Part shown: one piece after another, positions 1,148-20,000 of the stretch | How the letters are laid out: the number at the start of each line of letters is the position of its first letter | How positions within the stretch are numbered: position 1 is the stretch's first letter | The notes under the pieces: generated by a model | What the model was told of the DNA's origin: nothing | The model's database searches: none | What the model saw: only the letters and a program-made list of their open reading frames with translations | Origin: an uncultured virus (IMG/VR IMGVR_UViG_3300046832_002586) | Taxonomy: Duplodnaviria > Heunggongvirae > Uroviricota > Caudoviricetes | Strand: one strand, 5' to 3' | IMG/VR virus record: IMGVR_UViG_3300046832_002586 | Location: 51,195 to 71,194 of that record | Length of the DNA stretch: 20,000 bases | Made by a program: the position numbers and the translations under genes

Positions 1148-1402
1148 ATGTTTGTCGCAAAATATGTTGTTATCAATGGTAGTGTGATTGTTTTTAGTGC
1201 TGCGATAAATCACTCTGACATAGTTGGTGGGCAAGATGCAACAAGTGCTGGGTTTGTCTCATTCCGAGTAATCAAAGATGTGGATGACTTTGATGTTGTT
1301 GAACCACATTGTTATGGTGAGTCTATAAGTTTGGGGGGATTAAAATCAAATCCTGAGGAAGACCAAAAAAAGATTAGGTTACAAATCCTTAATAGATATT
1401 AA
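1148..1402 (+). CDS. Hypothetical phage protein
   Basis: 84-aa ORF starting 2 nt after the previous stop; motifs H...SAGFV...CYGESISL. Confidence 0.8.
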   Translation: MFVAKYVVINGSVIVFSAAINHSDIVGGQDATSAGFVSFRVIKDVDDFDVVEPHCYGESISLGGLKSNPEEDQKKIRLQILNRY

Positions 1403-1944
1403 AGGTATTTCGCTAAAACGTTTCTTAAACTTATTTTTGCCTTACTGAGTTGTGAACGAGAGGTTCCTGGGTCAATACCCAAGACCTCCGCAATCTCATT
1501 GTGTTTTAGGTTACCAAAATAATATAACATCAATATTGTTTTGTAACCTTCGGCTAAACCATCAACCGCTTTTCTTAACTGTTCTTTGGTTATTCTACCA
1601 CCCATGAAATCGGTTTCCGTAGGTTCTACTCCAACATCCATTTTTGAGATATCTAAATCAGTTGTGGTATCCAACTGTTTTTTTCTAAACTCATTGATAA
1701 TTTCGTTGGTGACAACTCTTCTTACCCATCCTTGTAAACTACCTTGACCTGAGTATTTGTCTAAGTTTTTATGAACTTTAAGAAATCCAATCTGACAAAA
1801 CTCTTTGGCTAAATCAATATCACCTTTGGCGTACTTCATACAAACCTGAGAAAATATTGGATTGTAATTTTTTTTATAAACTTCCGTAAAATCTAACCCT
1901 TCGGTTAAAATCTTACGTTGAGACTCCGTGATAATAATTTTCAT
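1399..1944 (-). CDS. ECF-type sigma-70 RNA polymerase sigma factor with MKIIITESQ leader
   Basis: Region 2 (AKEFCQIGFLKVHKNLDKY..GSLQGWVRRVVTNEIINEFRK) and region 4 HTH (LKHNEIAEVLGIDPGTSRSQLSKAK). Confidence 0.92.
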   Translation of the reverse strand: MKIIITESQRKILTEGLDFTEVYKKNYNPIFSQVCMKYAKGDIDLAKEFCQIGFLKVHKNLDKYSGQGSLQGWVRRVVTNEIINEFRKKQLDTTTDLDISKMDVGVEPTETDFMGGRITKEQLRKAVDGLAEGYKTILMLYYFGNLKHNEIAEVLGIDPGTSRSQLSKAKISLRNVLAKYL

Positions 1945-1961
1945 ATTCTAATAAATATCTG

Positions 1962-2348
1962 TTAGATGGGTTCCCCTTCAATTGCCCAATAAAACATGGA
2001 ATAATTACCTGCGAGTTGTTTCACATAATCAATGACTTCACTTAATTGTTCGGGATTAATGGTATCATCTTCAACCCATTCAACGTTAATCCAAATGTCA
2101 CCTTTACTTGGGTAGACAATAAAGATTAAGAATTCATCATCAAAGAATTTGAAATCTTTTCCTTCAAATCCAAAGACTTGAATTGCTTGGTCTTCAATTA
2201 ACATTCTTCCTGGCTCAACAATATCGTAACGATTCAGAAAATCGGCAACGGTTAAAACTTCCTCTGTTGGCTGGCCAATAATATTAGATTCAATATCAAT
2301 ATTTTCATTGAATCTTTTATATTGTGATTCTGAGATAATATACTTCAT
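1962..2348 (-). CDS. Acidic hypothetical protein with MKYIISESQ leader
   Basis: Start reassigned to ATG 2348 because the leader motif begins there and TATTTAT lies 4 nt upstream on the minus strand. Confidence 0.8.
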   Translation of the reverse strand: MKYIISESQYKRFNENIDIESNIIGQPTEEVLTVADFLNRYDIVEPGRMLIEDQAIQVFGFEGKDFKFFDDEFLIFIVYPSKGDIWINVEWVEDDTINPEQLSEVIDYVKQLAGNYSMFYWAIEGEPI

Positions 2349-2433
2349 GATTATAAATACTTTCCTATAGTTAATATTAAAGTTTTGATAATACATAAAA
2401 CCATCATAACAACATAATTTAACCTAATTATAG

Positions 2434-4145: not shown

Positions 4146-4159
4146 AATATTTATTGTTT

Positions 4160-4681
4160 ATGAATTTGTTTGAAAACATAAATAGGATTAAGGAGGTGAT
4201 GGGATTAAACGAAGTGTTTGATGACATCAAAGGAGTTCCGTTATATCACAAGACTTCAACAAACAGGGGATTAGATATAATCAATAGTGATGCGTTAAGG
4301 GCGGGTTCAATACCATCAGGAGATTACCTTCAATATGATAAAAGAATGGCCAAAACAAAACATCAAAACGCCATTTCATTTACAAGAGATAAGAATTGGG
4401 ACCCAGGTCACACAATAGGTATAGGATTGGAATCACCATTGGAAGATTCAAATATGACATTTGTTGTAGATAGAAACAAATTAAGAACAAAATATAAAGT
4501 TGAATCGTTCAACTATGCAGGGATTGAACCTGACTACGAATATCATAAAAAGAATAATGAATTGGAAGAACGTGTGATGACTAATGAAATATATCCATTA
4601 CATCGTTATCTTATAGACATCATTTACACGGGTGATGACCCTGAAGTTCAAGATAAAATCAACAATTATTTGAGACGATGA
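4160..4681 (+). CDS. Putative ADP-ribosyltransferase-fold protein with MNLFENINRIKEVMG leader
   Basis: LYHKTS, ISFTRD and ELEERV resemble the three catalytic strands of ART-like folds; TATTTAT at 4148-4154. CDS is confident, function tentative. Confidence 0.55.
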   Translation: MNLFENINRIKEVMGLNEVFDDIKGVPLYHKTSTNRGLDIINSDALRAGSIPSGDYLQYDKRMAKTKHQNAISFTRDKNWDPGHTIGIGLESPLEDSNMTFVVDRNKLRTKYKVESFNYAGIEPDYEYHKKNNELEERVMTNEIYPLHRYLIDIIYTGDDPEVQDKINNYLRR

Positions 4682-5199
4682 ACTTACAAGAAAATATACA
4701 TAGAATCAAAGAAATGATGGGAGTTATCAATGAAGAGGTAATCACCAATCAACCTGTAGAAATATTCTCTGATGGTGGGGGAAGTGAATATGCAGACAAA
4801 TATGTTGGAGCAATTCAGAAGATACGAGTAAGTGACACATTACCAAACGAGCCATTCAAAGATATATCATACATGGAAACAAGTGATAATATTAAAAATA
4901 TGGTTAAATCCATCAATGATGGTGAAGAGTTACCACCAATCAAAGTAATACAACATCCATATGACAGGACTAAGTATATTGTGGTTGATGGAAATCACAG
5001 AAGATACGCATTTCTTAAGTCAGATATGGATGATGTTGGTGCAATTGTTATACCCCACTCAGATGTGGTTTTAATGAAAACAACATGGGGTGATAAAAAT
5101 AAAGACTATGTAAGTTTATCCGATGTCTTAGATAATAAAAAGGTGATAGATAAATATTTTGTTAAACCTGATGGGACAAACAATTTTGAAATAAATTAA
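4678..5199 (+). CDS. ParB/Sulfiredoxin-domain protein with MNLQENIHRIKEMMG leader
   Basis: ELPPIKV...YIVVDGNHRRYA is the ParB/Srx signature; 4-nt ATGA overlap with the upstream gene. Confidence 0.8.
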   Translation: MNLQENIHRIKEMMGVINEEVITNQPVEIFSDGGGSEYADKYVGAIQKIRVSDTLPNEPFKDISYMETSDNIKNMVKSINDGEELPPIKVIQHPYDRTKYIVVDGNHRRYAFLKSDMDDVGAIVIPHSDVVLMKTTWGDKNKDYVSLSDVLDNKKVIDKYFVKPDGTNNFEIN

Positions 5200-5925: not shown

Positions 5926-6357
5926 ATGAGTAGAGTAAAAATTTCAACAAGCAAGGGTGATATGATTGCAGAATTGTATGACGATGAAACGCCAATTACC
6001 ACAGGTAACTTCAAAAGTTTAATTGAGAAGAAGTTTTATGATGGATTAAACTTCCACAGAGTAATTCCAAACTTTGTTGTTCAGGGTGGATGTCCTAACG
6101 GTATGGGTAACGGTGGTCCTGGCTACACCATTCAGTGTGAGGTAACCGCACCAAAACAATACCACGACAGAGGTGTATTGTCTATGGCACATGCGGGACG
6201 TAACACAGGTGGTTCACAGTTCTTTATCTGTCACAACCGACAAGGTACACAGCATTTGGATAATAACCACACTTGTTTTGGTAAAGTGGTGGAAGGTCTT
6301 GATGTCCTTGACCAAATCAGACAGGGAGATGTGATTAACTCAATCGGGATGATGTAA
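5926..6357 (+). CDS. ppiA: Cyclophilin-type peptidyl-prolyl cis-trans isomerase
   Basis: FYDGLNFHRVIPNFVVQGG, GVLSMAHAGRNTGGSQFFI, HLDNNHTCFGKV. Confidence 0.95.
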   Translation: MSRVKISTSKGDMIAELYDDETPITTGNFKSLIEKKFYDGLNFHRVIPNFVVQGGCPNGMGNGGPGYTIQCEVTAPKQYHDRGVLSMAHAGRNTGGSQFFICHNRQGTQHLDNNHTCFGKVVEGLDVLDQIRQGDVINSIGMM

Positions 6358-6382
6358 TTCCCATTTAAATCAAAATCATAAA

Positions 6383-6409
6383 GCCCTCCACCAAAAGTGG
6401 GGGTTTTTT
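6383..6409 (+). repeat. Cassette-boundary hairpin/terminator repeat R1
   Basis: GCCCTCCACCAAAAGTGGGGGTTTTTT. Confidence 0.8.
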
Positions 6410-6410
6410 A

Positions 6411-6442
6411 TTTGGTAGTGTCAAATTTTTTGTTTTACTTTG
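6411..6442 (+). promoter_or_regulatory. Bacteroidota-type promoter (near-consensus)
   Basis: TTTG 6411-6414, 20-nt spacer, TTACTTTG 6435-6442, ATG 6447. Confidence 0.55.
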
Positions 6443-6446
6443 CATT

Positions 6447-6920
6447 ATGAGTAATATGGAACACCAAATTAACCTTGAAAAAATTGCTGAAGGTTTCAAC
6501 ATCAGTGTTGATGCGGTAAAAAAATTTTTAAATGATGGTAGAATCATTGGTAGACTTTCGGAATTTATTCGAGAAGAAGTAAGAGGTTCCACTCGAGCGT
6601 CATCTGAGTCGAGTCCATATGATGTTAGTGATGTTATGAATGGTAGAGAAGAAGTTAGGTCCATAAGTAAAAATGGTATTTCTTTTGCATCATCTAAGGA
6701 GGTTGGATATGGTAGGGTGGTTACTGAAGAAGGGTTTAAAGAAAAATTAAATAGTTTAGACATTTATGTTGCTGTCGATTTTAGAGATATTGAAAACCTA
6801 ATTTTTCATGAAATAACTAAAGATGAAATTGTCTTGTTAGAAAAAAATGGAAAATTAGGTAAGAATAAAAAAATGAGTGCGGAAAAAATTTATGAATTTT
6901 TAAACAGGCGTAATAAATAA
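6447..6920 (+). CDS. Putative PD-(D/E)xK-fold (type II restriction-like) endonuclease
   Basis: E...PYDVSD...EEVRSIS resembles a PD-(D/E)xK core (ExR variant); lies directly upstream of a DNA MTase. Confidence 0.5.
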   Translation: MSNMEHQINLEKIAEGFNISVDAVKKFLNDGRIIGRLSEFIREEVRGSTRASSESSPYDVSDVMNGREEVRSISKNGISFASSKEVGYGRVVTEEGFKEKLNSLDIYVAVDFRDIENLIFHEITKDEIVLLEKNGKLGKNKKMSAEKIYEFLNRRNK

Positions 6921-6955
6921 TATACTTTGTATTTAAAAAATCTTATATTTACTGT

Positions 6956-7783
6956 ATGGAAGTTAATAGAATTTATTTGGAAGATTGTTTGGACACGATG
7001 AAAAGAATGCCAGACAATTTTGTTTCTCTGACTGTCACATCACCTCCGTATGATGACCTTAGAACGTATAACAATAAGATAAAAGGTTTAACCACTGATT
7101 ACAATGGATACTCATTTGACTTTGAGAACATTGCTCGTGAGTTATACAGAGTAACCAAAAAAGGTGGGGTTGTTGTATGGGTTGTAGGAGATGCAACACA
7201 CAATGGTTCTGAAACAGGAACATCATTCAGACAGGCGTTATTCTTTAAAGAAATTGGGTTCAATATTCACGACACAATGATTTATATGAAGAACAACTTT
7301 GCCAATCCATCAAACACAAGATATCATCAGATATTTGAGTATATGTTTGTTTTATCTAAAGGTAAACCTGAGGTATTCAATCCAATCAAAGACAGGAAGA
7401 ATGTATATGGTGGACAGGTAGGTTCGTGGGGTAAAAACACTGTCAGACAAAAAGATGGTTCCATGAAGGAGAATACCAAGAAGATGATTGAGGAGTATGG
7501 ACAAAGATATAATGTTTGGACGTATAAAACTTCTAAGAATGGACAAGAAGATGAGGTTGCATATGAACACCCCGCTATCTTCCCGATTGATTTGGTTAAG
7601 GACCATATTACATCTTGGACAAACGAGGGGGATATTATTTACGACCCATTTATGGGAAGTGGAACCACCGCAAAAGGTGCGATGTTGTTGAATAGACTAT
7701 GGATTGGTTCTGAGATAAATGAAGAGTATGTAGATATTTGTGACCGAAGGTTAGGAACGATTCAAACGGAAATGAATCTGTAA
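6956..7783 (+). CDS. Beta-class N4-cytosine/N6-adenine DNA methyltransferase
   Basis: VTSPPY (motif IV) precedes HPAIFP and DPFMGSGTT (motif I); GSEINEEY. Confidence 0.95.
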   Translation: MEVNRIYLEDCLDTMKRMPDNFVSLTVTSPPYDDLRTYNNKIKGLTTDYNGYSFDFENIARELYRVTKKGGVVVWVVGDATHNGSETGTSFRQALFFKEIGFNIHDTMIYMKNNFANPSNTRYHQIFEYMFVLSKGKPEVFNPIKDRKNVYGGQVGSWGKNTVRQKDGSMKENTKKMIEEYGQRYNVWTYKTSKNGQEDEVAYEHPAIFPIDLVKDHITSWTNEGDIIYDPFMGSGTTAKGAMLLNRLWIGSEINEEYVDICDRRLGTIQTEMNL

Positions 7784-7787
7784 AATA

Positions 7788-7816
7788 GACCCTCACTAAT
7801 TAAGTGGGGGTTTTTT
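7788..7816 (+). repeat. Cassette-boundary repeat R2
   Basis: GACCCTCACTAATTAAGTGGGGGTTTTTT. Confidence 0.85.
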
Positions 7817-7840
7817 ATTTTAAAAAAAGTTTTAAAATCG

Positions 7841-7871
7841 TTTGGTAATTCAAAAATCTGTTTTATATTTG
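7841..7871 (+). promoter_or_regulatory. Bacteroidota-type sigma-A promoter (consensus)
   Basis: TTTG 7841-7844, 19-nt spacer, TATATTTG 7864-7871. Confidence 0.75.
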
Positions 7872-7952
7872 TAGTGTCGATGTGGGAGTAAATGTCCGAG
7901 CTTCTATCACAGACACTCTATTAATCACAATTCGGACGACACTTTTTTTACA

Positions 7953-9515
7953 ATGAACCAAAATTCATTACATGAAACCGATATGGTATCATCGGGAGCA
8001 CCCACCCTCACAGGAAGTGAAGGTCACGGTCAAAAGAACCAAGACAACCAATTAGTCGCTGACGCTAAAAGACGTTTAGTCGACTCTACTACTCAACCTT
8101 TGTTTAAAGGTGAGGTGACTGGTAAACACTATCTTGTGTATATCAAAGAAGATGCTGGTAAAGAAGTATCAGTGACTACTATCATTGATGACTATAAGTC
8201 AGATGGTCTTGTAAATCCGAAACCTGCATATCAACGTCCTGCGGGCCAACACTCGCCTAAAGTTCAAAAAGGAATTCTTCTTGACTTTTTGTGTGGAGAA
8301 CGAGTTGGAACTATCGTACTTTATCAACCTGAAAACCGTTATCAACAAGAGCTTGTAGATGGTGGTCAACGAGTTGATATTATCCGTAAGTTTATAAATA
8401 GTAAATTGACACTTTCTGGTCAACAAGCGGCTAAATTTTGGGCTTACTATCTTCCCGAAATTATCCGAGGGCACCAACAAAAAGTCGATGAGAGTTTACA
8501 ACTTGAATGTAATAAACTCTTGAAAGCGATTGGAACCAACAAAAACGTACCGGTGGTAAAATTTGAAAACTTACCGCATAATGTAAGAAAAGAGATAAAA
8601 AAACTAACCTTTGACCTCAAAGTAATTAGTAAGATAGTGTTCAAGTGTATCGAAGACGATATTACGTTGACTTACAACTCTGAAGACTACGATGAGACTA
8701 AAGTTATTGAGATGGTTAGGAGTAAATTTAACAAGTTGAACTTACAACAAAAACCTGTACAACCCATCCATCAGATTTGGGGTTCTCGAGATGAGTATAA
8801 CATCAAGTCCCGTGGATATGTTGAGACTTACCCAGCTATCATGAGTGCATTTGGATACAACTTGGAAGAGGATGGTTCAACCAATGACGAAGAAGTGACA
8901 CGAACCTTTAACGACCTGTTGGTACGTTCCATGTTAGGTTTTGATGAAAAAGTTAAGTGGGGTCTTGGTATCCAAAAAGTGGCTGAAAACTTACTCGATG
9001 CTGTTTATGATGATGAGATTCCTGTTCAACCAAATGCTTTCGGTTTCATCGACTTTATGAGAACCCGTTTGGGTAAGGTTTTTAGTGGTAAGTTTGGTGA
9101 TAAAAACAATAATGTTCGTAAAGTGGAACTGGCTCGTGAGATGGTTGGTGTAGGTCAAAAAGCTGTGATGCAACGTTTGTTTATTCTTTCACTTATGGAA
9201 TTTTGGATGTATCTTAAAGAAAACAACAAATCGTCCAAGTACATGAGTGGCGAGACTATTTACGATAGTATGTATAATTACATGGAGTTGTTGTCTAAAG
9301 TTATCTCAACAGTAACTATGAGAACTATGGAGAAAGAAGATTACGGTAATGTTGATAAACCCCTCAAGAAGTATGGTTTGATGGGTATGTATGAGACTAA
9401 CCAAAAACTTTTTGACAACCTGATTCGTTTAGGTGGTCACTCTCAAAAAGACCATGTTTTGGTTAAACCAACCTTACGTTCTATTGTTGAGTTAGTTGAT
9501 GAATACACCATCTAA
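7953..9515 (+). CDS. DUF262 (GmrS/DndB-like ParB-superfamily) domain protein
   Basis: PAYQRP, GILLDFLCGERVGTIVLY, ELVDGGQR (DGQQR-like), later FNKLN. C-terminal half unassigned. Confidence 0.8.
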   Translation: MNQNSLHETDMVSSGAPTLTGSEGHGQKNQDNQLVADAKRRLVDSTTQPLFKGEVTGKHYLVYIKEDAGKEVSVTTIIDDYKSDGLVNPKPAYQRPAGQHSPKVQKGILLDFLCGERVGTIVLYQPENRYQQELVDGGQRVDIIRKFINSKLTLSGQQAAKFWAYYLPEIIRGHQQKVDESLQLECNKLLKAIGTNKNVPVVKFENLPHNVRKEIKKLTFDLKVISKIVFKCIEDDITLTYNSEDYDETKVIEMVRSKFNKLNLQQKPVQPIHQIWGSRDEYNIKSRGYVETYPAIMSAFGYNLEEDGSTNDEEVTRTFNDLLVRSMLGFDEKVKWGLGIQKVAENLLDAVYDDEIPVQPNAFGFIDFMRTRLGKVFSGKFGDKNNNVRKVELAREMVGVGQKAVMQRLFILSLMEFWMYLKENNKSSKYMSGETIYDSMYNYMELLSKVISTVTMRTMEKEDYGNVDKPLKKYGLMGMYETNQKLFDNLIRLGGHSQKDHVLVKPTLRSIVELVDEYTI

Positions 9516-9520
9516 AAAAA

Positions 9521-9547
9521 GACCCTCACATAAAGTGGGGGTTTTTT
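9521..9547 (+). repeat. Cassette-boundary repeat R3
   Basis: GACCCTCACATAAAGTGGGGGTTTTTT. Confidence 0.85.
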
Positions 9548-9583
9548 ATTTACAGAATTTTTTATTTTGTTATTTTTTATTGA

Positions 9584-10552
9584 ATGAAAGATTTGATTTT
9601 TATAACGGCTCATTGTCCATCGGAAGAACAAGAAAGAGCTCTTGAGAGGTGTATTGATTCTGTTTCAAAAAGTGGATATCACATTGCCTTATTATCTCAC
9701 ACTCATATTCCTTTTCATATTCAAAAAAAATGTAATTTTTATTTCTACGACTATTTGAATGATACTTCTGAGGACGTAGATTTATTACCTCCTGGTTTCT
9801 TTTTTTCTTTTGGTGACAAAATCATAAAATCCATTTTTTTCATAAAAAACTTTTATGGGTTTGCAATCTACAGAATGTTTTCAATCGCATCACAAATTGC
9901 AATCAATTTTGGATATAAAAATATACATCACATTGAGTATGATTGTGAGGTCCTTGATTTAGAAATTTTAAAACAACACAATGAGTTATTAGAAAATTAT
10001 GACTCAATTCTTTACACAACAACTGGTGACAGTGATGGGTTTATGTTTGGGTCTTTAAAGTCTGTAAGGGTTGACAAATTACCACGATTGTTCACCGATT
10101 ATAATCGTGATGAGATTGAAAAAAGGATGAGAGATTTTGGACAGAATGTAAATTTGGAATATATTACCAAAACAGAGTTCAAAAATCACACAAATGTTTT
10201 GTTTAGAAAAGAATCTGAACTCAATGGTTTTTTCAAAAAGGGAGAACATTTTTACGAGAGAAATTTACATTATACTCTTTTTTATGATAAAAAAGACAAC
10301 AAAATCAAACTTTTCTACAATTCACAAAAAATTGAAGAGGAAACTGTAATTGTTATTATAAATAATTCCGAAGTGCATACCTTGAATGTAAAACCTAACC
10401 ATTGGTATATTGAAAATTTGTATCCTATGGATGAGGTAAAAACCATCAGAATTGATAATTCAGAAAAAATAATATACGAAAAACATTTTGATGATACTTT
10501 CAAAGAGATTTTTAAATTAAAATCTCACCTAATTTATGAAGAAAATAATTAA
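9584..10552 (+). CDS. Putative glycosyltransferase-like (GT-A) protein
   Basis: N-terminal LIFITAH strand, LLSHT, and EYDCE at the DxD position; in an operon with a sugar acyltransferase. Function tentative. Confidence 0.5.
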   Translation: MKDLIFITAHCPSEEQERALERCIDSVSKSGYHIALLSHTHIPFHIQKKCNFYFYDYLNDTSEDVDLLPPGFFFSFGDKIIKSIFFIKNFYGFAIYRMFSIASQIAINFGYKNIHHIEYDCEVLDLEILKQHNELLENYDSILYTTTGDSDGFMFGSLKSVRVDKLPRLFTDYNRDEIEKRMRDFGQNVNLEYITKTEFKNHTNVLFRKESELNGFFKKGEHFYERNLHYTLFYDKKDNKIKLFYNSQKIEEETVIVIINNSEVHTLNVKPNHWYIENLYPMDEVKTIRIDNSEKIIYEKHFDDTFKEIFKLKSHLIYEENN

Positions 10553-11363
10553 TTTTACTCCAACAGGTACTCAGACAACGAGGATTAATTCGTTTGCTCC
10601 ATTGACTCCAAGTGAAATTGTGGATGAGGTAATAGGTGCGAATGAAATTGGTATATCTATTGTTCATCTTCATGCAAGGGATGAGGTTACGTTAGAAAAT
10701 ACATACAAGAAGGAAGTATATCAGAAGATAATAGAGGGGATAAAGAAGTATTGTCCTGAGTTATTGATTTGTGTTTCATTAACAGGTAGGAATTTCCCTG
10801 AACTATCACAAAGAGCGGAGGTTCTACAGTTATATCCTGACATGGGTTCATTAACAATGTCATCATTAAACTTCCAATCAGGAACATCGGTTAACCAACC
10901 TGAGATGATATTGTCTTTAATTAATGAGATGGACAAATACGGGGTACAACCTGAGATAGAATGTTTTGACACAGGTATGTTAAATTATACAAACTATCTT
11001 ATTTCAAAGAACATATTAAAATCTCCACACCACATCAATATGATTTTGGGGAATATCTATAATGGTCAATGTGAATTTGGTACGTTATCAACAATTAAAA
11101 ATAACATACCAACGAACTCATTTACATGTTTGGGTGGGATAGGTTCACAACAGTTAAAGAGTATAACATATGGGTTATTGGATTTTGATGGAATCAGAAT
11201 AGGTTTGGAAGATAATTTATATTATAGGGGTAAGGAAAAAACTACCAACATGATGTTATTAAAAAGAGCTCACAGATTGATGGATGAATTTGACATGGAA
11301 CATTATGCATCTACGGAATTAAGAAAAATGGGTTATGGAAACAAAATTATTAATAGTAGGTAA
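10536..11363 (+). CDS. BKACE / 3-keto-5-aminohexanoate cleavage enzyme family (DUF849)
   Basis: PTG, PLTPSEI, VHLHARD, SLTMSSLN, PEIECFD, RIGLEDN motifs. Confidence 0.92.
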   Translation: MKKIINFTPTGTQTTRINSFAPLTPSEIVDEVIGANEIGISIVHLHARDEVTLENTYKKEVYQKIIEGIKKYCPELLICVSLTGRNFPELSQRAEVLQLYPDMGSLTMSSLNFQSGTSVNQPEMILSLINEMDKYGVQPEIECFDTGMLNYTNYLISKNILKSPHHINMILGNIYNGQCEFGTLSTIKNNIPTNSFTCLGGIGSQQLKSITYGLLDFDGIRIGLEDNLYYRGKEKTTNMMLLKRAHRLMDEFDMEHYASTELRKMGYGNKIINSR

Positions 11364-11973
11364 GGGTGATAATGTCATCACGATGATAGTTGACAATTTA
11401 TATTCCAACCATGATTTACTCACAATAGATGTCTACAACAATCTGAATTTAGAAGTTGTTAATAATATTTCTCATCCTGAATATAAAATCTCATTACTTC
11501 CCGATGTGGATTTTAACGATTACGAACACATTTGTTTGGGAGTGTATCAGCCAAAATTAAAAAGAATTTTGGTTGAGAAGTATAATATAAACGAAAATAA
11601 ATTAGTTAATATTATTCACCATGGTCTTATTAAATCTGAGACGGTAGAATTAGGTAAGGGGTTACTTATTAATTCTTTAGTAACCATTGCGGCACACACT
11701 TGTATAAAAGATTATGTTTCAATAAACCGTAGTGTTTCTATAGGTCATCACGTTACAATTGGTAAATACTCTTCAATTAATCCTGGCACAAACATTGCGG
11801 GAAATGTAACGGTGGGTGAAGGAACAACGATAGGGATGGGGAGTAATATTATTAATGGGGTTAAAATAGGTAACAATACTATAATAGGTGCAGGTTCAGT
11901 TGTCACTAAAGATATTCCTGACAATGTGGTAGCTTATGGTAATCCATGTAAAATAATTAGGGATAATCTGTAA
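11335..11973 (+). CDS. NeuD/PglD-like sugar O/N-acyltransferase (left-handed beta-helix)
   Basis: Hexapeptide repeats, GHH, IIGAGSVVTKDIP, AYGNPCK. Confidence 0.92.
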   Translation: METKLLIVGKGDNVITMIVDNLYSNHDLLTIDVYNNLNLEVVNNISHPEYKISLLPDVDFNDYEHICLGVYQPKLKRILVEKYNINENKLVNIIHHGLIKSETVELGKGLLINSLVTIAAHTCIKDYVSINRSVSIGHHVTIGKYSSINPGTNIAGNVTVGEGTTIGMGSNIINGVKIGNNTIIGAGSVVTKDIPDNVVAYGNPCKIIRDNL

Positions 11974-12000
11974 ATCCACTCACATAAAAGTGGGGGGTTA
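11974..12000 (+). repeat. Cassette-boundary repeat R4 (degenerate)
   Basis: ATCCACTCACATAAAAGTGGGGGGTTA. Confidence 0.7.
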
Positions 12001-12003
12001 TTA

Positions 12004-12035
12004 TTTGGTAATATCAATTATTTATTGTTACTTTG
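12004..12035 (+). promoter_or_regulatory. Bacteroidota-type promoter (near-consensus)
   Basis: TTTG 12004-12007, 20-nt spacer, TTACTTTG 12028-12035, ATG 12040. Confidence 0.55.
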
Positions 12036-12039
12036 TAAT

Positions 12040-12219
12040 ATGATGAATACAACTACTGAAATTTTGGAAAACGCTATAAATGAAATTAAACTTTTGACTC
12101 CTGAAGAAAGACGGGAGATAGAGTTGGAAGCATCTGAGAGCATGAATAGATATATTATGGGGGATGGTGATTCCCGAGACCTATACAATTACTATGATTG
12201 TATGGAGAAATTAAAGTAA
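12040..12219 (+). CDS. Small acidic hypothetical protein
   Basis: 59-aa ORF from ATG 12040 between the promoter and R5. Confidence 0.7.
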   Translation: MMNTTTEILENAINEIKLLTPEERREIELEASESMNRYIMGDGDSRDLYNYYDCMEKLK

Positions 12220-12225
12220 TTAAGA

Positions 12226-12252
12226 GACCCTCACTAATAAGTGGGGGTTTTT
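12226..12252 (+). repeat. Cassette-boundary repeat R5
   Basis: GACCCTCACTAATAAGTGGGGGTTTTT. Confidence 0.85.
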
Positions 12253-12277
12253 CATATTTATTAATAAACAAATTCAT

Positions 12278-12652
12278 ATGTGGCAAGCAAACATTACAAT
12301 CAATAATAACACCGAATACAATTTAACTATTAATGGTGTTGGACCTGGCAATCAAACAATAGGACCGAACTCACAAGTATCATGGTCATCAACTGAGGTA
12401 CACAACACCAAGAGTCTTTTATTTTGGGTTCAGGAGAATGTATGGTATATGCAAGGTAACCTTTCATTCGGTCCTGAGGCGGGAGTATATGTGGACCGTG
12501 GATGGATGGCGGACGGTGACCAATCTATAGAGATGGTGGCTGACGCAAACGGTAAGACATGGAATCAGACATCAAACGGGGGAGAAACTCTCTTACAGTG
12601 GAACGAATTTGAAAGTGGAGGTGATATAACACTAACCTTTAACAAACAATAA
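12278..12652 (+). CDS. Hypothetical beta-rich protein
   Basis: 124 aa, Asn/Gly/Thr/Trp-rich with alternating strand patterns; single-gene cassette between R5 and R6. Confidence 0.8.
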   Translation: MWQANITINNNTEYNLTINGVGPGNQTIGPNSQVSWSSTEVHNTKSLLFWVQENVWYMQGNLSFGPEAGVYVDRGWMADGDQSIEMVADANGKTWNQTSNGGETLLQWNEFESGGDITLTFNKQ

Positions 12653-12656
12653 AATA

Positions 12657-12682
12657 GACCCTCACATAAAAGTGGGGGTTTT
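12657..12682 (+). repeat. Cassette-boundary repeat R6
   Basis: GACCCTCACATAAAAGTGGGGGTTTT. Confidence 0.85.
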
Positions 12683-12699
12683 GTTGTATTTATACTATT

Positions 12700-13662
12700 A
12701 TGAGGGATTTAATTAGGCGTATTTTGCGTGAACAAACATTGATTAATGAATTTGCTAGAGGGTCTAAGAGTAATACTGATGAGTTCATCGAAAAGGCTCG
12801 CCAAGTTCACGGGGATAAGTACACCTACGATAATGTTGATTACAATGGCGCTGGAGCATTCGTTAATATAACTTGTCCAAAACACGGTGATTTTTCTATA
12901 CGAGCTAGTCATCATTTATCAGGTAGAGGTTGTAGAGATTGTTACCTTGAAAACCATCGTTTTAATACCGATGAGTTTATTGAAAGAGCAAAAAAAGTTC
13001 ACGGAGATAAGTACACCTACGATAAAGTTGATTACAAGACCAATAAACAAGATGTTATTATAACTTGTCCAAAACACGGTGATTTTCCTCAATTATCTGG
13101 AAACCATTTACAAGGTGCTGGGTGTCCAAAGTGTTTCCGTGAAAGCCGTCGTTATAATACTGATGAGTTCATCGAAAAGGCTCGCCAAGTTCACGGGGAT
13201 AAGTACACCTACGATGATGTTGATTATAAGGATGCGCACACACTTGTTAATATAACTTGTCCTAAACACGGTGATTTTCTTCAAAAACCTGGTAACCATT
13301 TATCAGGTCAAGGTTGTCCAACGTGTTTAGAATCAAAAGGAGAGAAGTATGTTGCAAACATTTTGGATAACAGAAATATTACCTATATTAGATGGAAAAG
13401 ATTTAATGATTGTAGAGGTTTCTGTAGAACTTTATCGTTTGATTTTTATTTACCCGATTATAATATATTCATTGAGTATGATGGTAGACACCATTTTAAA
13501 CCCGTAAATATATGGGGTGGAGATGACAGTTTAAAAAAACAACAAATGTATGACACCATCAAAAATGAATATGCAAAACGCAACAACATCAAGTTAATTA
13601 GAATACCCTATACTCTTCCTTTAAAAGACGTAGACGATTTACTCACAACAGAAATTAAATAA
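12700..13662 (+). CDS. Zinc-ribbon-repeat (DUF723-like) protein with C-terminal PD-(D/E)xK/Vsr-like nuclease; homing-endonuclease-like
   Basis: Three 64-aa repeats FIEKA..VHGDKYTY...ITCPKHGDF...HL.G.GC..C, then ESKGE...FDFYLP...IEYDGRHH; leader MRDLIRRILREQ. Confidence 0.85.
   Translation: MRDLIRRILREQTLINEFARGSKSNTDEFIEKARQVHGDKYTYDNVDYNGAGAFVNITCPKHGDFSIRASHHLSGRGCRDCYLENHRFNTDEFIERAKKVHGDKYTYDKVDYKTNKQDVIITCPKHGDFPQLSGNHLQGAGCPKCFRESRRYNTDEFIEKARQVHGDKYTYDDVDYKDAHTLVNITCPKHGDFLQKPGNHLSGQGCPTCLESKGEKYVANILDNRNITYIRWKRFNDCRGFCRTLSFDFYLPDYNIFIEYDGRHHFKPVNIWGGDDSLKKQQMYDTIKNEYAKRNNIKLIRIPYTLPLKDVDDLLTTEIK
12771..13346 (+). repeat. Three intragenic 192-bp tandem repeats
   Basis: Units start at 12771, 12963 and 13155; 12771-12831 is identical to 13155-13215. 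Confidence 0.9.
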
Positions 13663-13689
13663 ACCCTCACTAATAAGTGGGGGTTTTTT
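13661..13689 (+). repeat. Cassette-boundary repeat R7
   Basis: AAACCCTCACTAATAAGTGGGGGTTTTTT. Confidence 0.85.
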
Positions 13690-13718
13690 ATTTAACATTT
13701 ACCACCTATATTTTAGGT

Positions 13719-14201
13719 ATGGGGTTATACGATGACTATTTAAAATCCAAGACGGGAGATACTGAAACAAAAGTGGGGGTGATTAATAATATTATCTCAA
13801 CGTACCCTAAGATAATAGATTATCTGTATAATCGTATAGATACATGTTTTGGTGAACACACAGTATATCTTGTACACATGAGAGTAGGTGGTGAAGATAT
13901 GTTAAAGATTGGTTACACTAAGAATGATGTTAACGGTAGATTCTCTGAGAATAGATATTCAGGTAGAGATACTATAGAGATTGTGGAAATCATAAGGGAG
14001 AATAAACTCCAAGCCAAAGGAGCGGTGGATTTCGAGAAAGATATAAAAGAACATACAAAAGAATATAAGATTATTACCAATCTTACATTACCTGGCAAGA
14101 ATGAATTCATGAGTATAAATTACAGAGATGAAATAACAACTCTATATGATAATCTATATCCACAATACATTAGTGTGGAAGGATTAAAGTCACCTAACTA
14201 A
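13719..14201 (+). CDS. GIY-YIG-like nuclease (T5orf172/MUG113-type)
   Basis: VYLVHM...LKIGYTK...GRF, later FEKDI and GKNEF. Start moved to ATG 13719 because the ORF-track start lies inside R7. Confidence 0.7.
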   Translation: MGLYDDYLKSKTGDTETKVGVINNIISTYPKIIDYLYNRIDTCFGEHTVYLVHMRVGGEDMLKIGYTKNDVNGRFSENRYSGRDTIEIVEIIRENKLQAKGAVDFEKDIKEHTKEYKIITNLTLPGKNEFMSINYRDEITTLYDNLYPQYISVEGLKSPN

Positions 14202-14408
14202 TATAGGGTAATGGACAATACAGTTCACTCACTCATAAAGGTGAGGTTCGGGTAAACCCTCACACACCATTTATTCGTTCATTCACTGATTATCCATTAC
14301 TTGTTTATAGTAAGTGCGGACTATAAACCAATCGTATCACCTATCGTATATTTACGTATATTTGCGTATCATTTCATACAACATATATTTATAATCAAAT
14401 AAGTCGGG

Positions 14409-15344: not shown

Positions 15345-16050
15345 GATAATTTTATACCTTTAAGTATAATACCGTTCGGTATAATCCCCCCCATTTCAGG
15401 TTCCCCCACCTAACGAATGACACATAGTATAGGTGATAGTGTATACCACAGTGAGGGGATGTCTGCAGTTAAGGGACTACGTCCCTATCATACGAGACAT
15501 CCCTAACTAATGGTATAGTGAATTCTTTAACCCACATCATTTTGCAGACAAACCCTACGGGACAAATGAGATGATGATACTATATCCCACTTTCTACCAC
15601 ACCTGACTATGTGTCATAATATGGGGGGATTATACACCATTGAGTAGACCATATAATGACCCTTACGGGTTCTCCTTGAAGGAGACTACGTCTCTCCCCA
15701 CGCTCTATACCTTAACATACCTTTTTAGCTGGATTTTGTAACACCTAAAAATATGGTCCTCACACTATCAGGAAGACCACTTTTTTTAGGCTGGTCATAG
15801 CGTCAGAACCATTTGGTGGTAGAAAGTGGGGGAAAGTGTTAAGATAGTATTACCCCAAAAGGGGGGAAAGAGATTGTGTGGGGTTTGAAACCCCCCTGAC
15901 ATTTTGACATTTCCAAATAAAATGGGGATAAGTTATCAACAATTTTCACCCCTGACAGTATGTCAGGGACCATTTATCCTTTACAAGTTATGAACATTTT
16001 ATATGTTCCTTAACGTGGATAAACTGTACCTTACCCCCAAGATAGAGAAG

Positions 16051-16428
16051 ATGGATGACAGGTATAGGGTGGAACTCTATTCTAATGGGGGGAAATTCTA
16101 TGGGATACTATACTATGAACTTGTTAAGAGGGGGTTTACAAACAAACCTATCTCAATGAACAAGTATACCTGTGTGGATGCTACACTCCAAAAAGACTTG
16201 TACGAAGACTTCCCCACCATAACTCCCGTCGGTCTGCTGAGGGGACTGACTCACCTAATCTCTCAATTAGATGGGGGTACAGATGAACATACATCTTCTC
16301 ATACCTACGAGCATCTATTTCATGGGGGTTCTTACGATACCCATGGAGACTATCAAGAGACCAATATACTTCCTTCTCCTGAGTGGAGTGGTACCACTCA
16401 TGAAGGAAACACTTCAGGAAATCCCTAA
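16051..16428 (+). CDS. Possible hypothetical protein, 3' part antisense to the HExxH gene
   Basis: First ~70 aa from MDDRYRVELY look protein-like; large convergent overlap makes it doubtful. Confidence 0.35.
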   Translation: MDDRYRVELYSNGGKFYGILYYELVKRGFTNKPISMNKYTCVDATLQKDLYEDFPTITPVGLLRGLTHLISQLDGGTDEHTSSHTYEHLFHGGSYDTHGDYQETNILPSPEWSGTTHEGNTSGNP

Positions 16429-16642
16429 GGGTTCCAATCTGTTTGGTCTGAAAGACAATGAACAGATTGTCATAGTCATAGTGTGATGCTGAGTCATCAA
16501 TTGTCTTACTATCTATATGACACTGAGGAACCATCCCACCAAATGGGGGGTGAAGGTTCTCGGTCCCCCAATCCAAACAGATATTCATAATCCTATTGAG
16601 GGTCCTGTTGTCTAACTTACTGATGGGGTAATCAAGATTCAT
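16181..16642 (-). CDS. Zincin-like HExxH metallopeptidase-domain protein
   Basis: FLHEWYHSTQ...NPHEIDAR (HExxH plus downstream E); TATCTTAG 4 nt before ATG 16642. Confidence 0.75.
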   Translation of the reverse strand: MNLDYPISKLDNRTLNRIMNICLDWGTENLHPPFGGMVPQCHIDSKTIDDSASHYDYDNLFIVFQTKQIGTLRDFLKCFLHEWYHSTQEKEVYWSLDSLHGYRKNPHEIDARRYEKMYVHLYPHLIERLGESVPSADRRELWWGSLRTSLFGV

Positions 16643-16783
16643 GCTGCTAAGATACAAAATATATCTGACATATAAGTTATGAACACCCCTTGTATATGTA
16701 AAAAGTTTGTGGTACCTTTGGGGTGGTAAGAGGGTGGGTCATCTAACCCCCCCGTTAAATAAACAATTATTTTTCCCCCCATG

Positions 16784-16815
16784 TTTGGTGGTGTCATATA
16801 TGTGTTGTATATTTG
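16784..16815 (+). promoter_or_regulatory. Bacteroidota-type sigma-A promoter (consensus)
   Basis: TTTG 16784-16787, 20-nt spacer, TATATTTG 16808-16815. Confidence 0.7.
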
Positions 16816-16835
16816 TAGTGTTAATAAGATAAACT

Positions 16836-16925
16836 ATGGAACAAGTCTTGGTCATCTCAGCAGTTGTGGTCCTCATCTTCGGGGGACTCATAGTGTATAG
16901 TATATCGGGCAAAGATAAGGAGTAG
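16836..16925 (+). CDS. 29-aa single-pass membrane microprotein (not in ORF track)
   Basis: MEQVLVISAVVVLIFGGLIVYSISGKDKE; hydrophobic helix plus charged tail, behind a consensus promoter. Confidence 0.65.
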   Translation: MEQVLVISAVVVLIFGGLIVYSISGKDKE

Positions 16926-17124
16926 GGCTCACAGGGGGGGACCTGTCACTATGACATGTTGTCCCCCCTTGTTGGGGATGGGGGCTACCCCCTATATGAC
17001 CCCCCCTCCCCCCGTATCCCCCCCATATACCCCTGTCAAAGTGTCAGTTTACCCCTACAATACCAAAAGTGTAGCAAAAAAATTTTTGGGAAAAAAATGA
17101 ACCTTTTTGGACTACTTATTGTAT

Positions 17125-17454
17125 ATGAAATTTCTCATTAAAGAATCACAGTTTGAAAAGATTGTATTCAGGTATCTTGATAGTGTGGATTTGGAACTAA
17201 TTGATGGTAGTAACACTTATGAATTTCATGGTACTCCTGTTATGTCAGACACAATGAGAGATTATCAATCAAGTCGTATTATTGTAGTTTTTAAAGTAGA
17301 TATGGATTGTTATATTAATTCTGATTTTGCTCAGGATATTTGTGATGTATTCTCTTTAACTCCTGGGGAGTCTTTAGATGTTATCGGAAAATGGATTGAA
17401 AATAAATTGGGTATCACTCTCAGTGGTGTTTATTCTGACTTTGGTGCAGATTAA
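17125..17454 (+). CDS. Hypothetical protein with MKFLIKESQ leader
   Basis: Leader motif; TACTTAT 5 nt upstream of ATG 17125. Confidence 0.8.
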   Translation: MKFLIKESQFEKIVFRYLDSVDLELIDGSNTYEFHGTPVMSDTMRDYQSSRIIVVFKVDMDCYINSDFAQDICDVFSLTPGESLDVIGKWIENKLGITLSGVYSDFGAD

Positions 17455-17459
17455 GAAAT

Positions 17460-18014
17460 ATGAAATATATTATTACAGAGCAACAATTAAATGATATTCC
17501 TGAGGAGGAACCTTCCAAGGGGAAGACTGTACGTAGGTTGGTTCAGGATATTGGGTTGACTGAGGTTTCAGAAATCATGGGGGGAATTGACCGTGTTATT
17601 GAATTGGGTTATAATGGAGACCTAATAAAGTTCAGTGAAGAGACAACAACACCAATTGCTTACATGTCAACAGACGGAATGAATTTATATTTACATGAGG
17701 CTTTAGTTAACAAACTTGGACTTGAAAATGTTAATTTTTCACCATCAACTTTTTCAAGACCAAAAACCTTAGGTAAATTTGTATATGGCTCCAAGAATGA
17801 TATACCATATGCATTCACAGCTAACTTAGAACCAATAAGACTTCATAACCAAAAGTATTATAGAGTTGTTGGTTCAAGTGGTGATTCAGGGTTTGGTTAT
17901 GGTTATATTACCAAACGAAACACATTAGGTAAGAGATACAGACAACAAATCTTCAAACAGATAATTGACAAGTATGATTTATTAAAATATATGACGGTAA
18001 AAACATTTTATTAA
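17460..18014 (+). CDS. Hypothetical protein with MKYIITEQQ leader
   Basis: 184-aa ORF with the leader motif, in tandem operon. Confidence 0.85.
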   Translation: MKYIITEQQLNDIPEEEPSKGKTVRRLVQDIGLTEVSEIMGGIDRVIELGYNGDLIKFSEETTTPIAYMSTDGMNLYLHEALVNKLGLENVNFSPSTFSRPKTLGKFVYGSKNDIPYAFTANLEPIRLHNQKYYRVVGSSGDSGFGYGYITKRNTLGKRYRQQIFKQIIDKYDLLKYMTVKTFY

Positions 18015-18016
18015 TC

Positions 18017-18373
18017 ATGAAATACATTATAACAGAAAATCAGTTTGATAGGATTCTTAGTGATGAAAATATTTCCTATATTAATAAAACCACCACAAGG
18101 TTGTTTAATCCCATATATCGTGAAATTCAGGATATTGTTATAACAAAGATGAATATTCTTGGGGACCCCCCTCTTCCCAAGATATACAATGTCTATGTGT
18201 ATGTTAATAATCAGCTTGATAAGAATAGAGAGCTTGAAATAGCCAGAACAATTTATTCATTTATTGAGGATAACTTTTTTATTAAAGTAAGAAACATTGA
18301 GTTTGATTCCGAAGACTTTCATTATAAGGGTAATCCCATTAGAATTAATCCCAATAGAGGACCGATTAACTAA
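18017..18373 (+). CDS. Hypothetical protein with MKYIITENQ leader
   Basis: 118-aa ORF with the leader motif, in tandem operon. Confidence 0.85.
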   Translation: MKYIITENQFDRILSDENISYINKTTTRLFNPIYREIQDIVITKMNILGDPPLPKIYNVYVYVNNQLDKNRELEIARTIYSFIEDNFFIKVRNIEFDSEDFHYKGNPIRINPNRGPIN

Positions 18374-19851: not shown

Positions 19852-20000
19852 ATTTTATAAATATATTTGTTGAGCTAAATTAAATGGGGGGATTAAATGA
19901 GGTACGCCGGTAACGGTTCCCGACTCCCCCTACCCCCTCTTTTCTCCCCCGCCGTTCACCGACCTTCGGTCGGATGTTTCCCCGTCCGAACCCCTTCGGG

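What the first reader, a model, noticed from the sequence alone, without database searches (positions are those of the whole stretch)
6383..14260. Repeat-delimited gene-cassette array: seven copies of a ~28-bp hairpin separate unrelated cargo
Seen: (GA)CCCTCAC-N4-6-AAGTGGGGGTTTT occurs at 6383, 7788, 9521, 11974, 12226, 12657 and 13661. Most copies lie within a few nt of a stop codon (R1 is ~25 nt away), are usually followed by a promoter motif, and are absent from the rest of the window. The U-G wobble in the stem is conserved, supporting an RNA terminator on +. Cassettes between repeats are co-oriented and unrelated (R-M pair, DUF262, sugar-acylation operon, two small genes, two nucleases). 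Sequence identity beyond what termination needs suggests common origin. Inference: an integron-like or homology-driven cassette-shuffling hotspot in which the terminator doubles as the recombination site. No recombinase is visible here.
Basis: partly seen in the sequence, partly recalled or inferred. Interest (0 to 1): 0.8.

Follow-up and report, generated by a model that had tools for sequence, protein, structure and literature searches.

The report
Terminator-joined gene cassettes in freshwater phage
A large uncultured freshwater phage separates its accessory genes with seven near-identical transcription-stop hairpins, and related phages have swapped genes at these hairpins, a compact variant of the gene shuffling already known from T4-type phages rather than an integron.

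Summary
Observation confirmed: seven terminator-like hairpins (CCCTCAC-loop-GTGGGGG-U tract; two are variants) lie in 7.3 kb, each 0-26 nt after a stop codon; the 71-kb record holds one more copy elsewhere. The record is a fragment of a large freshwater phage whose complete relatives carry T4-type gp23 and bS21 (Bacteroidota hosts predicted in the literature). Relatives show exchange at the repeat: all seven junctions occur with another neighbour, and identity switches inside the ~25-30-nt hairpin (L326, L293, L312, L403/L315). Loops travel with either side, so there is no fixed crossover point. No intact integrase or resolvase was found and the hairpins lack attC cores, but a UvsX-like recombinase is present in 6 of 8 complete records. 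Adjacency breaks at 13 of 22 hairpin boundaries versus 92 of 348 plain ones, but other terminators break at 21 of 51, and some joins lack a hairpin. No circles were seen (contigs only). Best reading: PeSL-type shuffling by short-homology recombination, in a variant where only the terminator is shared. 'Integron-like' is not supported. The scan noted PeSL-like arrays on other DNA before.

The parts
5926..6357 (+). Cyclophilin-type PPIase; recurrent upstream anchor of the variable block
   Evidence: PF00160 E 2e-43; followed by a family hairpin and different cassettes in L293, L312, L315, L344, L174, L403
6383..6409 (+). R1, variant hairpin + U tract
   Evidence: same variant arm followed by another cassette in L293
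6447..6920 (+). Type II restriction endonuclease-like gene (cassette 1)
   Evidence: PADLOC PDLC03550 E 6.6e-17; replaced by two other ORFs in L312 while the MTase stays
6956..7783 (+). N6/N4 DNA methyltransferase (cassette 1)
   Evidence: PF01555 E 3e-44; PADLOC oMTase E 4e-93
7788..7816 (+). R2 hairpin + U tract; exact TAnnTTTG box downstream
   Evidence: other right neighbour in L312
7953..9515 (+). 520-aa DUF262/GmrSD_N-like gene (cassette 2)
   Evidence: PF03235 E 2.4e-5, below cut-off
9521..9547 (+). R3 hairpin + U tract
   Evidence: same right flank behind other left genes in L326 and L403
9584..11973 (+). Three-gene operon (cassette 3): 322-aa unknown, BKACE, hexapeptide acetyltransferase (NeuD/PglB-like)
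   Evidence: PF05853 E 9e-59, PF00132; TIGR03570 142 bits, cut-off 160.8; followed in relatives by a DegT aminotransferase or a sulfotransferase
11974..12006 (+). R4, degenerate hairpin with weak U tract
   Evidence: G002 has a family hairpin at the start of the same downstream cassette but none at the operon end
12040..12219 (+). 59-aa gene of no known family (cassette 4)
   Evidence: no hit; hairpin on both sides and different neighbours on both sides in G002
12226..12252 (+). R5 hairpin + U tract; loop differs in the otherwise near-identical L122
12278..12652 (+). 124-aa all-beta protein, aegerolysin-like fold as a lead (cassette 5)
   Evidence: its hairpin is followed by 9 different right flanks among the sites sampled
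12657..12682 (+). R6 hairpin + U tract; TATTTAT downstream
12700..13662 (+). DUF723/CapR-repeat endonuclease, homing-endonuclease-like (cassette 6)
   Evidence: PHROG 559 E 1.6e-82; PF05265; three 192-nt internal repeats
13661..13689 (+). R7 hairpin + U tract
   Evidence: other right neighbour in L293, other left neighbour in L399
13719..14201 (+). T5orf172/MUG113-family nuclease-like gene, not closed by a hairpin copy
   Evidence: PF10544 E 1.3e-4, over cut-off
14206..14300 (+). Conserved ~95-nt rod-shaped non-coding element at the downstream edge
   Evidence: z -4.3; homologues in L334, L174, L253, L315, L326, L329 in different contexts; no Rfam match

Best explanation
The repeat is an intrinsic transcription terminator for + strand transcripts (inferred from position, strand asymmetry and U tract; not measured). 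It ends one accessory transcription unit and is followed directly by the promoter region of the next. Because the same ~25-30 nt recur at each boundary of a hyperplastic region, recombination between two copies (in one genome or between co-infecting relatives) joins any upstream gene to any downstream promoter+gene unit and leaves one working chimeric terminator. Shown: exchange products with the switch inside the hairpin, local clustering of identical terminators, no intact site-specific recombinase. Inferred: the exchange is general short-homology recombination by the phage's UvsX-like/SSB system or template switching in replication, selection keeps the viable products, and the same process homogenises neighbouring terminators. 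Once formed, junctions also spread by ordinary recombination in shared genes. This works like PeSL shuffling of T4-type phages, with the shared unit cut down to the terminator.
For: L326: left flank matches window R6, right flank matches window R3, switch inside GACCCTCACATAAA, flanking DNA 91% identical, downstream protein 100% identical. L293: cyclophilin + R1-variant hairpin directly followed by an R6-type tail and a 64%-identical homologue of the cassette-6 endonuclease, cassettes 1-5 absent. L403 vs L315 and L339 vs L312: 80-nt left flanks 100% identical, right flanks unrelated. Among 225 unique sites, 17 same-left pairs lose identity -4 to +10 nt from the 3' arm and 11 same-right pairs gain it within 3 nt of the 5' arm. 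All seven window junctions have another partner in some relative. Adjacency breaks: 13 of 22 hairpin clusters vs 92 of 348 without terminator (p 0.002). Identical terminator arms cluster within 10 kb in 5 of 7 records tested, with a different arm sequence per lineage. UvsX-like recombinase next to an SSB in 6 of 8 complete records.
Against: Other terminators break at 21 of 51 (p 0.20 against the family); within hairpin-bearing loci the contrast is 11 of 20 vs 18 of 62 (p 0.058). G002 joins the operon promoter to a left gene with no hairpin, its operon end has none either, and L312 swaps the REase at a hairpin-free boundary. The only multi-base difference from a near-identical record is a 173-nt patch with ends inside genes, not in the repeat. 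No hairpin-to-hairpin deletion or circle among the 15 of 19 joints listed for four runs (contigs only). No local clustering in G002 and G003. The UvsX-like gene is not on this 24%-complete record. About 25-30 bp is short for RecA-family pairing (recalled). Pairs are not independent events and the sites were sampled by the hairpin pattern.
Confidence: 0.65

Rival explanations
1. Selection only ('moron' accretion): DNA is joined at random by illegitimate recombination, only joins at transcription-unit boundaries survive, and the hairpins look alike because of local duplication and the demands of termination. The repeat marks the joints but does not cause them.
For: Other terminators also break often (21 of 51); joins without a hairpin exist (G002; L312); the intergenic space is so short (1-26 nt before, 21-43 nt after for six of seven copies) that any viable join falls near the hairpin.
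Against: Chimeric junctions keep exactly one intact hairpin with the switch within about 10 nt of it in all 28 pairs; unrelated cargo carries the same arms while the other 9 terminator-like hairpins called on the record have other arms; different lineages have locally homogenised different arm sequences.
Confidence: 0.2
2. Homing-type endonucleases in the block (12700-13662, 13719-14201) cut co-infecting genomes, and repair resolves at the nearest homology, often a hairpin; the repeat is a passive resolution site.
For: Two nuclease-like genes in the block; a homologue of the first sits at another position, right behind the cyclophilin hairpin, in L293.
Against: Swaps occur in loci where no such gene was seen beside the junction (L326, L315, L140); the G012 array has one-gene cassettes with no recognisable nuclease by eye (not scanned). 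Nuclease activity untested.
Confidence: 0.07
3. Integron-like, site-specific system: a dedicated recombinase recognises the hairpin as single-stranded DNA and excises and inserts cassettes.
For: Strand-asymmetric hairpin with a kept U-G/T-G pair (38 of 47 + strand forms); co-oriented cassettes; an empty-site-like arrangement in L315.
Against: No attC core at the hairpins: the three RYYYAAC..GTTRRRY matches in 6300-14300 lie inside the DUF262 gene. PF00589 0 of 1 on this record and 1 of 12 in relatives, that one with three stops and no matching ORF; PF00239 0 of 13; PF07508 0 of 11. Loop follows the left side in 5 of 17 and the right side in 7 of 11 pairs, so no fixed crossover. Cassettes carry promoter-like boxes of their own.
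Confidence: 0.04
4. The alternative junctions are mis-assemblies at a short repeat in mixed metagenomes.
For: All evidence is from assemblies; Logan contigs break at R2 and R3 in runs X20 and X8; no listed piece spans R6.
Against: Chimeric loci differ from the window by 4-16% in the flanking DNA, so they are other genomes; the order 124-aa gene, hairpin, operon recurs in L326, L139 and L224; the window's own order is matched by L122 over 12,487 nt at 99.9% and by pieces spanning R1-R5 and R7 (two of the four runs may be the source of this DNA).
Confidence: 0.04

Closest known systems
PeSLs/PmSLs (promoter-early or -middle stem-loops) of T4-type phages: Arbiol et al. 2010, PMC2839356 (parts 1-3 of 6 read); Comeau et al. 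2014, PMC4122927 (parts 1-2 of 3 read)
   Same: Repeated intergenic stem-loop terminator next to a promoter, clustered in a hyperplastic region, bounding accessory genes that are gained, lost, replaced or moved between close relatives, leaving one chimeric element; lineage-specific stem sequences; gp23-type capsid in complete relatives; non-repeat exchanges occur alongside.
   Different: Shared sequence is only the ~25-30-nt terminator (PeSL conservation spans about 100 bp and includes a sigma-70 promoter and Shine-Dalgarno); the downstream box varies (Bacteroidota-type TAnnTTTG or TATTTAT) and travels with the downstream gene; cargo includes an R-M pair and a three-gene operon; mini-circles and promoter/terminator activity are not shown here.
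Integron gene cassettes (attC/IntI); features recalled, not from a call
   Same: Co-oriented unrelated genes separated by an imperfect palindrome; order changes between relatives.
   Different: No attC core, much shorter site, no integrase, no fixed crossover point, cassettes bring their own promoter-like boxes.
bS21-encoding large freshwater phages (Chen et al. 2022, PMC9723584; 12 passages read)
   Same: Complete relatives of 270-326 kb; 3 of 3 tested encode bS21; the paper reports no integrase or resolvase and predicts Bacteroidetes hosts.
   Different: The paper's main text has 0 occurrences of 'terminator' and 'recombination'; bS21 is not on this fragment, so membership rests on relatives sharing 30-40 of 97 ORFs at 45-52% median identity.
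Morons and linker/boundary sequences of lambdoid phages (recalled, no paper read)
   Same: Promoter-gene-terminator units added between genes; short shared sequences at module borders.
   Different: Here one terminator sequence is repeated seven times in a row and units are strung in tandem.

Membership tests
PeSL-type shuffling | Repeated intergenic stem-loop clustered in a hyperplastic region | tested here: met
   7 of 8 copies in 7.3 kb of 71 kb; identical arms in 15 of 34 near pairs vs 0 of 42 far pairs, p 0.006
PeSL-type shuffling | Gain, loss, replacement or move of genes with a single chimeric element at the joint | tested here: met
PeSL-type shuffling | Conserved sigma-70-like early promoter and Shine-Dalgarno as part of a ~100-bp repeated unit | tested here: not met
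   Identity ends within 10 nt of the 3' arm; no sigma-70 enrichment; downstream boxes differ: TAnnTTTG in 36 of 225 and TATTTAT in 89 of 225 sites, shuffled means 15 and 16
PeSL-type shuffling | Excised mini-circles | tested here: inconclusive
   No hairpin-to-hairpin joint among 15 of 19 joints listed; runs were contigs, which drop rare forms
PeSL-type shuffling | Measured terminator and promoter activity | not testable with these tools
PeSL-type shuffling | T4-type phage | tested here: inconclusive
   gp23 (PF07068) in 3 of 3 complete relatives, absent from 2 fragments; this record was not searched for it
Integron | Integron integrase (tyrosine recombinase) | tested here: not met
   0 of 1 on this record, which is 24% complete; 1 broken match in 12 relatives, 8 of them at least 90% complete
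Integron | attC core sites RYYYAAC...GTTRRRY around a long imperfect palindrome | tested here: not met
   Three matches, all inside the DUF262 gene, none at a hairpin
Integron | Fixed crossover position | tested here: not met
   Loop shared in 5 of 17 same-left and 7 of 11 same-right pairs; chance sharing 0.019; loops differ in 6 of 25 pairs with both flanks kept
bS21 freshwater phage group | bS21 gene | tested here: inconclusive
   3 of 3 complete relatives have it; the near-identical fragment G006 and fragment G001 do not hold it

The most novel reading that the evidence does not exclude
The terminator itself directs recombination: these phages use a hairpin- or termination-linked route (a phage enzyme that acts on the single-stranded hairpin, or replication switching templates where RNA polymerase stops) that makes 25-30-nt terminators real crossover hotspots below the usual homology need, and each lineage keeps its own locally homogenised terminator as a compatibility code for which cassettes it can trade.
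Probability: 0.12. Interest if true: 0.75.

Novelty: new variant of a known kind. Interest (0 to 1): 0.42.

Why it matters
It extends PeSL-type shuffling to an abundant uncultured group of ~300-kb freshwater phages and gives unusually clean products: pairs with identical left flanks and unrelated right flanks place crossovers inside about 25-30 nt. That makes an old question testable: do short regulatory repeats drive phage mosaicism or only mark the joins that selection lets through? It also points to the block where these phages sample restriction-modification, surface-sugar and possible membrane-binding genes. The principle is in print since 2010, so the surprise is moderate.

Tried and rejected
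Rfam on the window: 4 matches, all far below gathering score. Sigma-70 promoter scan: no enrichment. tblastn of the cyclophilin against GenBank phages: best 51% identity, no named close phage. Four Logan runs (contigs only): no hairpin-to-hairpin joint listed; joints from a hairpin to 14206-14240, 4678 or 12277 have short sides (21-29 nt where given) or inserted letters and probably come from related phages, so they are not counted as circles or deletions. Search for closer relatives spanning the array through an upstream gene: the three 95% records (L409-L411) end before it by their contig ranges, and the two searched hold no hairpin. T5orf172 gene as anchor: 3 distant loci, uninformative. 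Three of the 20 same-left pairs (right identity 0.56-0.61) were diverged homologous flanks and were dropped by the stricter cut. The exact window hairpin occurs only 0-2 times in each of 8 complete records, so it is not a clade-wide site; local families with other arms take its place. One search found nothing because the pattern had one letter too many; the corrected pattern found 2 loci. One search's output was cut, and the needed rows were recomputed. My ORF caller missed the 124-aa homologue in G012 (found), so its cargo counts are not used. Earlier-findings look-ups by place and sequence were empty.
Full report
Observation. Five copies match CCCTCAC-N3-8-AAGTGGGGG exactly (7790, 9523, 12228, 12659, 13664) against 0 in 200 shuffles; R1 (6384) and R4 (11974-11977) are variants. 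Each follows a stop codon (about 26 nt for R1, 1-8 nt for the rest), has a U tract, and folds better on the + strand than on the - strand. In the 71,194-base record there is one more copy, at 43251, and the other terminator-like hairpins have different arms. A near-identical record adds about 29 kb upstream with no further copy. The last nuclease gene is not closed by a copy, so six cassettes are bracketed.

What the record is. It is a virus record estimated 24% complete. Complete relatives of 270-326 kb were reached through shared proteins; three of them share 30-40 of its 97 ORFs at 45-52% median identity. All 3 complete records tested encode T4-type gp23 and bS21. Chen et al. 2022 (PMC9723584, 12 passages read) predict Bacteroidetes hosts for such phages and report no integrase or resolvase. 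The -7 promoter consensus TANNTTTG of Bacteroidetes (PMC6847099, two passages read) follows 36 of 225 hairpin sites and TATTTAT follows 89 of 225, against shuffled means of 15 and 16. That TATTTAT is a phage promoter box is my inference.

Cargo. Type II REase-like gene and MTase; a 520-aa protein with a weak GmrSD_N/DUF262 hit; an operon of an unknown gene, BKACE and a NeuD/PglB-like acetyltransferase; a 59-aa unknown; a 124-aa beta-sandwich whose best structural matches are aegerolysins at TM about 0.5, none at E under 0.001 (a lead only); a DUF723-repeat endonuclease; a T5orf172-family gene.

Exchange at the repeat. L326 carries the 124-aa gene, one hairpin, then the operon: its left flank follows window R6, its right flank follows window R3, the switch lies in the shared GACCCTCACATAAA, the DNA on both sides is 91% identical to the window and the first operon protein 100%. 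L293 has the cyclophilin and the R1 variant hairpin directly followed by a homologue of the cassette-6 endonuclease, with cassettes 1-5 absent. L293 and L312 put the same right-hand gene behind two different left genes that the window follows with two other cassettes. L403 and L315, and L339 and L312, are identical over 80 nt on the left and unrelated on the right. G002, 82-91% identical and colinear over about 37 kb upstream, has the 59-aa gene between two hairpins with other neighbours on both sides. Thus all seven junctions occur with another partner. Of 356 raw sites, 225 unique ones with 80-nt flanks were compared: 17 same-left pairs lose identity between 4 nt inside and 10 nt past the 3' arm, and 11 same-right pairs gain it within 3 nt of the 5' arm. 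These are pairs, not independent events.

No fixed crossover. The loop is shared in 5 of 17 same-left pairs and 7 of 11 same-right pairs; two random sites share it with probability 0.019, and it differs in 6 of 25 pairs that keep both flanks. Exchange therefore falls on both sides of the loop, as expected for homology and not for a site-specific enzyme; loop mutation blurs the count.

Control. Over 3,987 unique stop-codon sites, clusters with at least 85% identical gene ends had a changed neighbour at 13 of 22 hairpin boundaries, 21 of 51 other terminators and 92 of 348 boundaries without one; in hairpin-bearing loci alone 11 of 20, 0 of 4 and 18 of 62; at 95% identity 5 of 13, 6 of 23 and 26 of 195. 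Fisher p is 0.002 against plain boundaries, 0.058 in the restricted set and 0.20 against other terminators. The family boundaries break about twice as often as plain ones, but the whole region is mosaic. Counter-examples: G002 joins the operon at both ends without a hairpin; L312 replaces the REase at a hairpin-free boundary; 13 of the 14 differences between the window and L122 form one 173-nt patch across R5 with ends inside genes, which is ordinary homologous exchange, also seen in the Logan contigs.

A clade-wide habit with private sequences. The exact window hairpin occurs 0-2 times in each of 8 complete records, yet identical terminator arms cluster within 10 kb in 5 of 7 records tested (G000, G001, G005, G011, G012; not G002, G003). 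G012 has seven copies of another hairpin in 3.5 kb between short cassettes. Local homogenisation with lineage-specific sequence fits repeated recombination between neighbours and matches what Comeau et al. report for PeSL stems.

Machinery. No PF00589 match on this record; 1 in 12 relatives, with three stops and no fitting ORF; no PF00239 in 13 and no PF07508 in 11. No attC core at the hairpins. A UvsX-like recombinase beside an SSB gene is present in 6 of 8 complete records; a seventh has a canonical RecA. It is not on this fragment. Four runs held as contigs showed no hairpin-to-hairpin joint among the 15 of 19 joints listed; contigs cannot show rare circles.

Mechanism. Shown: chimeric junctions, clustering, absence of an intact known site-specific recombinase. 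Inferred: termination; promoter function; crossover by short-homology recombination or template switching; selection of viable products. Unequal crossing-over between co-infecting relatives is enough to give the observed orders, so circles are not required. Best explanation 0.65; selection-only 0.20; endonuclease-driven 0.07; integron-like 0.04; mis-assembly 0.04.

Comparison with what is known. It works like PeSL shuffling (PMC2839356, parts 1-3 of 6 read; PMC4122927, parts 1-2 of 3 read). It fails one defining feature, the conserved sigma-70 promoter inside a unit of about 100 bp, so I file it as a variant and not as a member. Integron and moron features are recalled. Five literature searches listed no paper on such arrays in this phage group; the library lacks most subscription papers and I opened no supplements, which could hold such a description. 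I had the PeSL lead before the look-up; the word search then listed 8 of 25 earlier scan findings of similar arrays in other genomes, none checked by me.

Verdict. Real, well supported as a shuffled accessory block with crossovers in a repeated terminator; not an integron; new variant of a known kind; interest 0.42.

Noticed in passing
window 12278-12652: 124-aa protein, 44 viral loci with relatives; confident all-beta model (pLDDT 94.5) whose top structural matches are aegerolysin-family proteins at TM about 0.5, E 1.8e-3 or weaker. Possibly a phage lipid-binding protein; lead only.
   Followed up: partly
window 14206-14300: Conserved rod-shaped non-coding element with complementary ends, found behind different genes in six other loci and directly behind the cyclophilin hairpin in L315; z -4.3; little covariation (5 of 28 pairs with a double change, six sequences); no Rfam match. 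Small RNA or MITE-like element.
   Followed up: partly
window 12189-12361: Strain-level mosaic patch: 13 of 14 differences to L122 lie here, including a changed R5 loop; both forms appear in Logan contigs.
   Followed up: yes
window 1399-2396, 4154-5199, 12700, 17107-18373: Many unrelated genes start with shared N-terminal leaders (MKYIITE-type, MNLQENI-type, MRDLIRRIL-type), often behind TATTTAT (21 of 97 ORFs of the record); Logan joints between 4203 and 4678 suggest a second shuffling route through these leaders.
   Followed up: no
window 15350-17100 and 19860-20000: Gene-poor stretch with G/C runs and palindromes; a similar stretch lies in G001, G005, G011 and G012. Candidate origin or terminus region.
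   Followed up: no
window 1399-1944 (-): Phage-encoded ECF-type sigma factor (Sigma70_r2 and r4_2), a candidate reader of the TATTTAT box.
   Followed up: no
G012:C1:209600-213100: Seven copies of a different ~35-nt terminator repeat between short cassettes, a cleaner array than the window's.
   Followed up: partly
G000:C1:10222-21000: Long collagen-like repeat genes.
   Followed up: no
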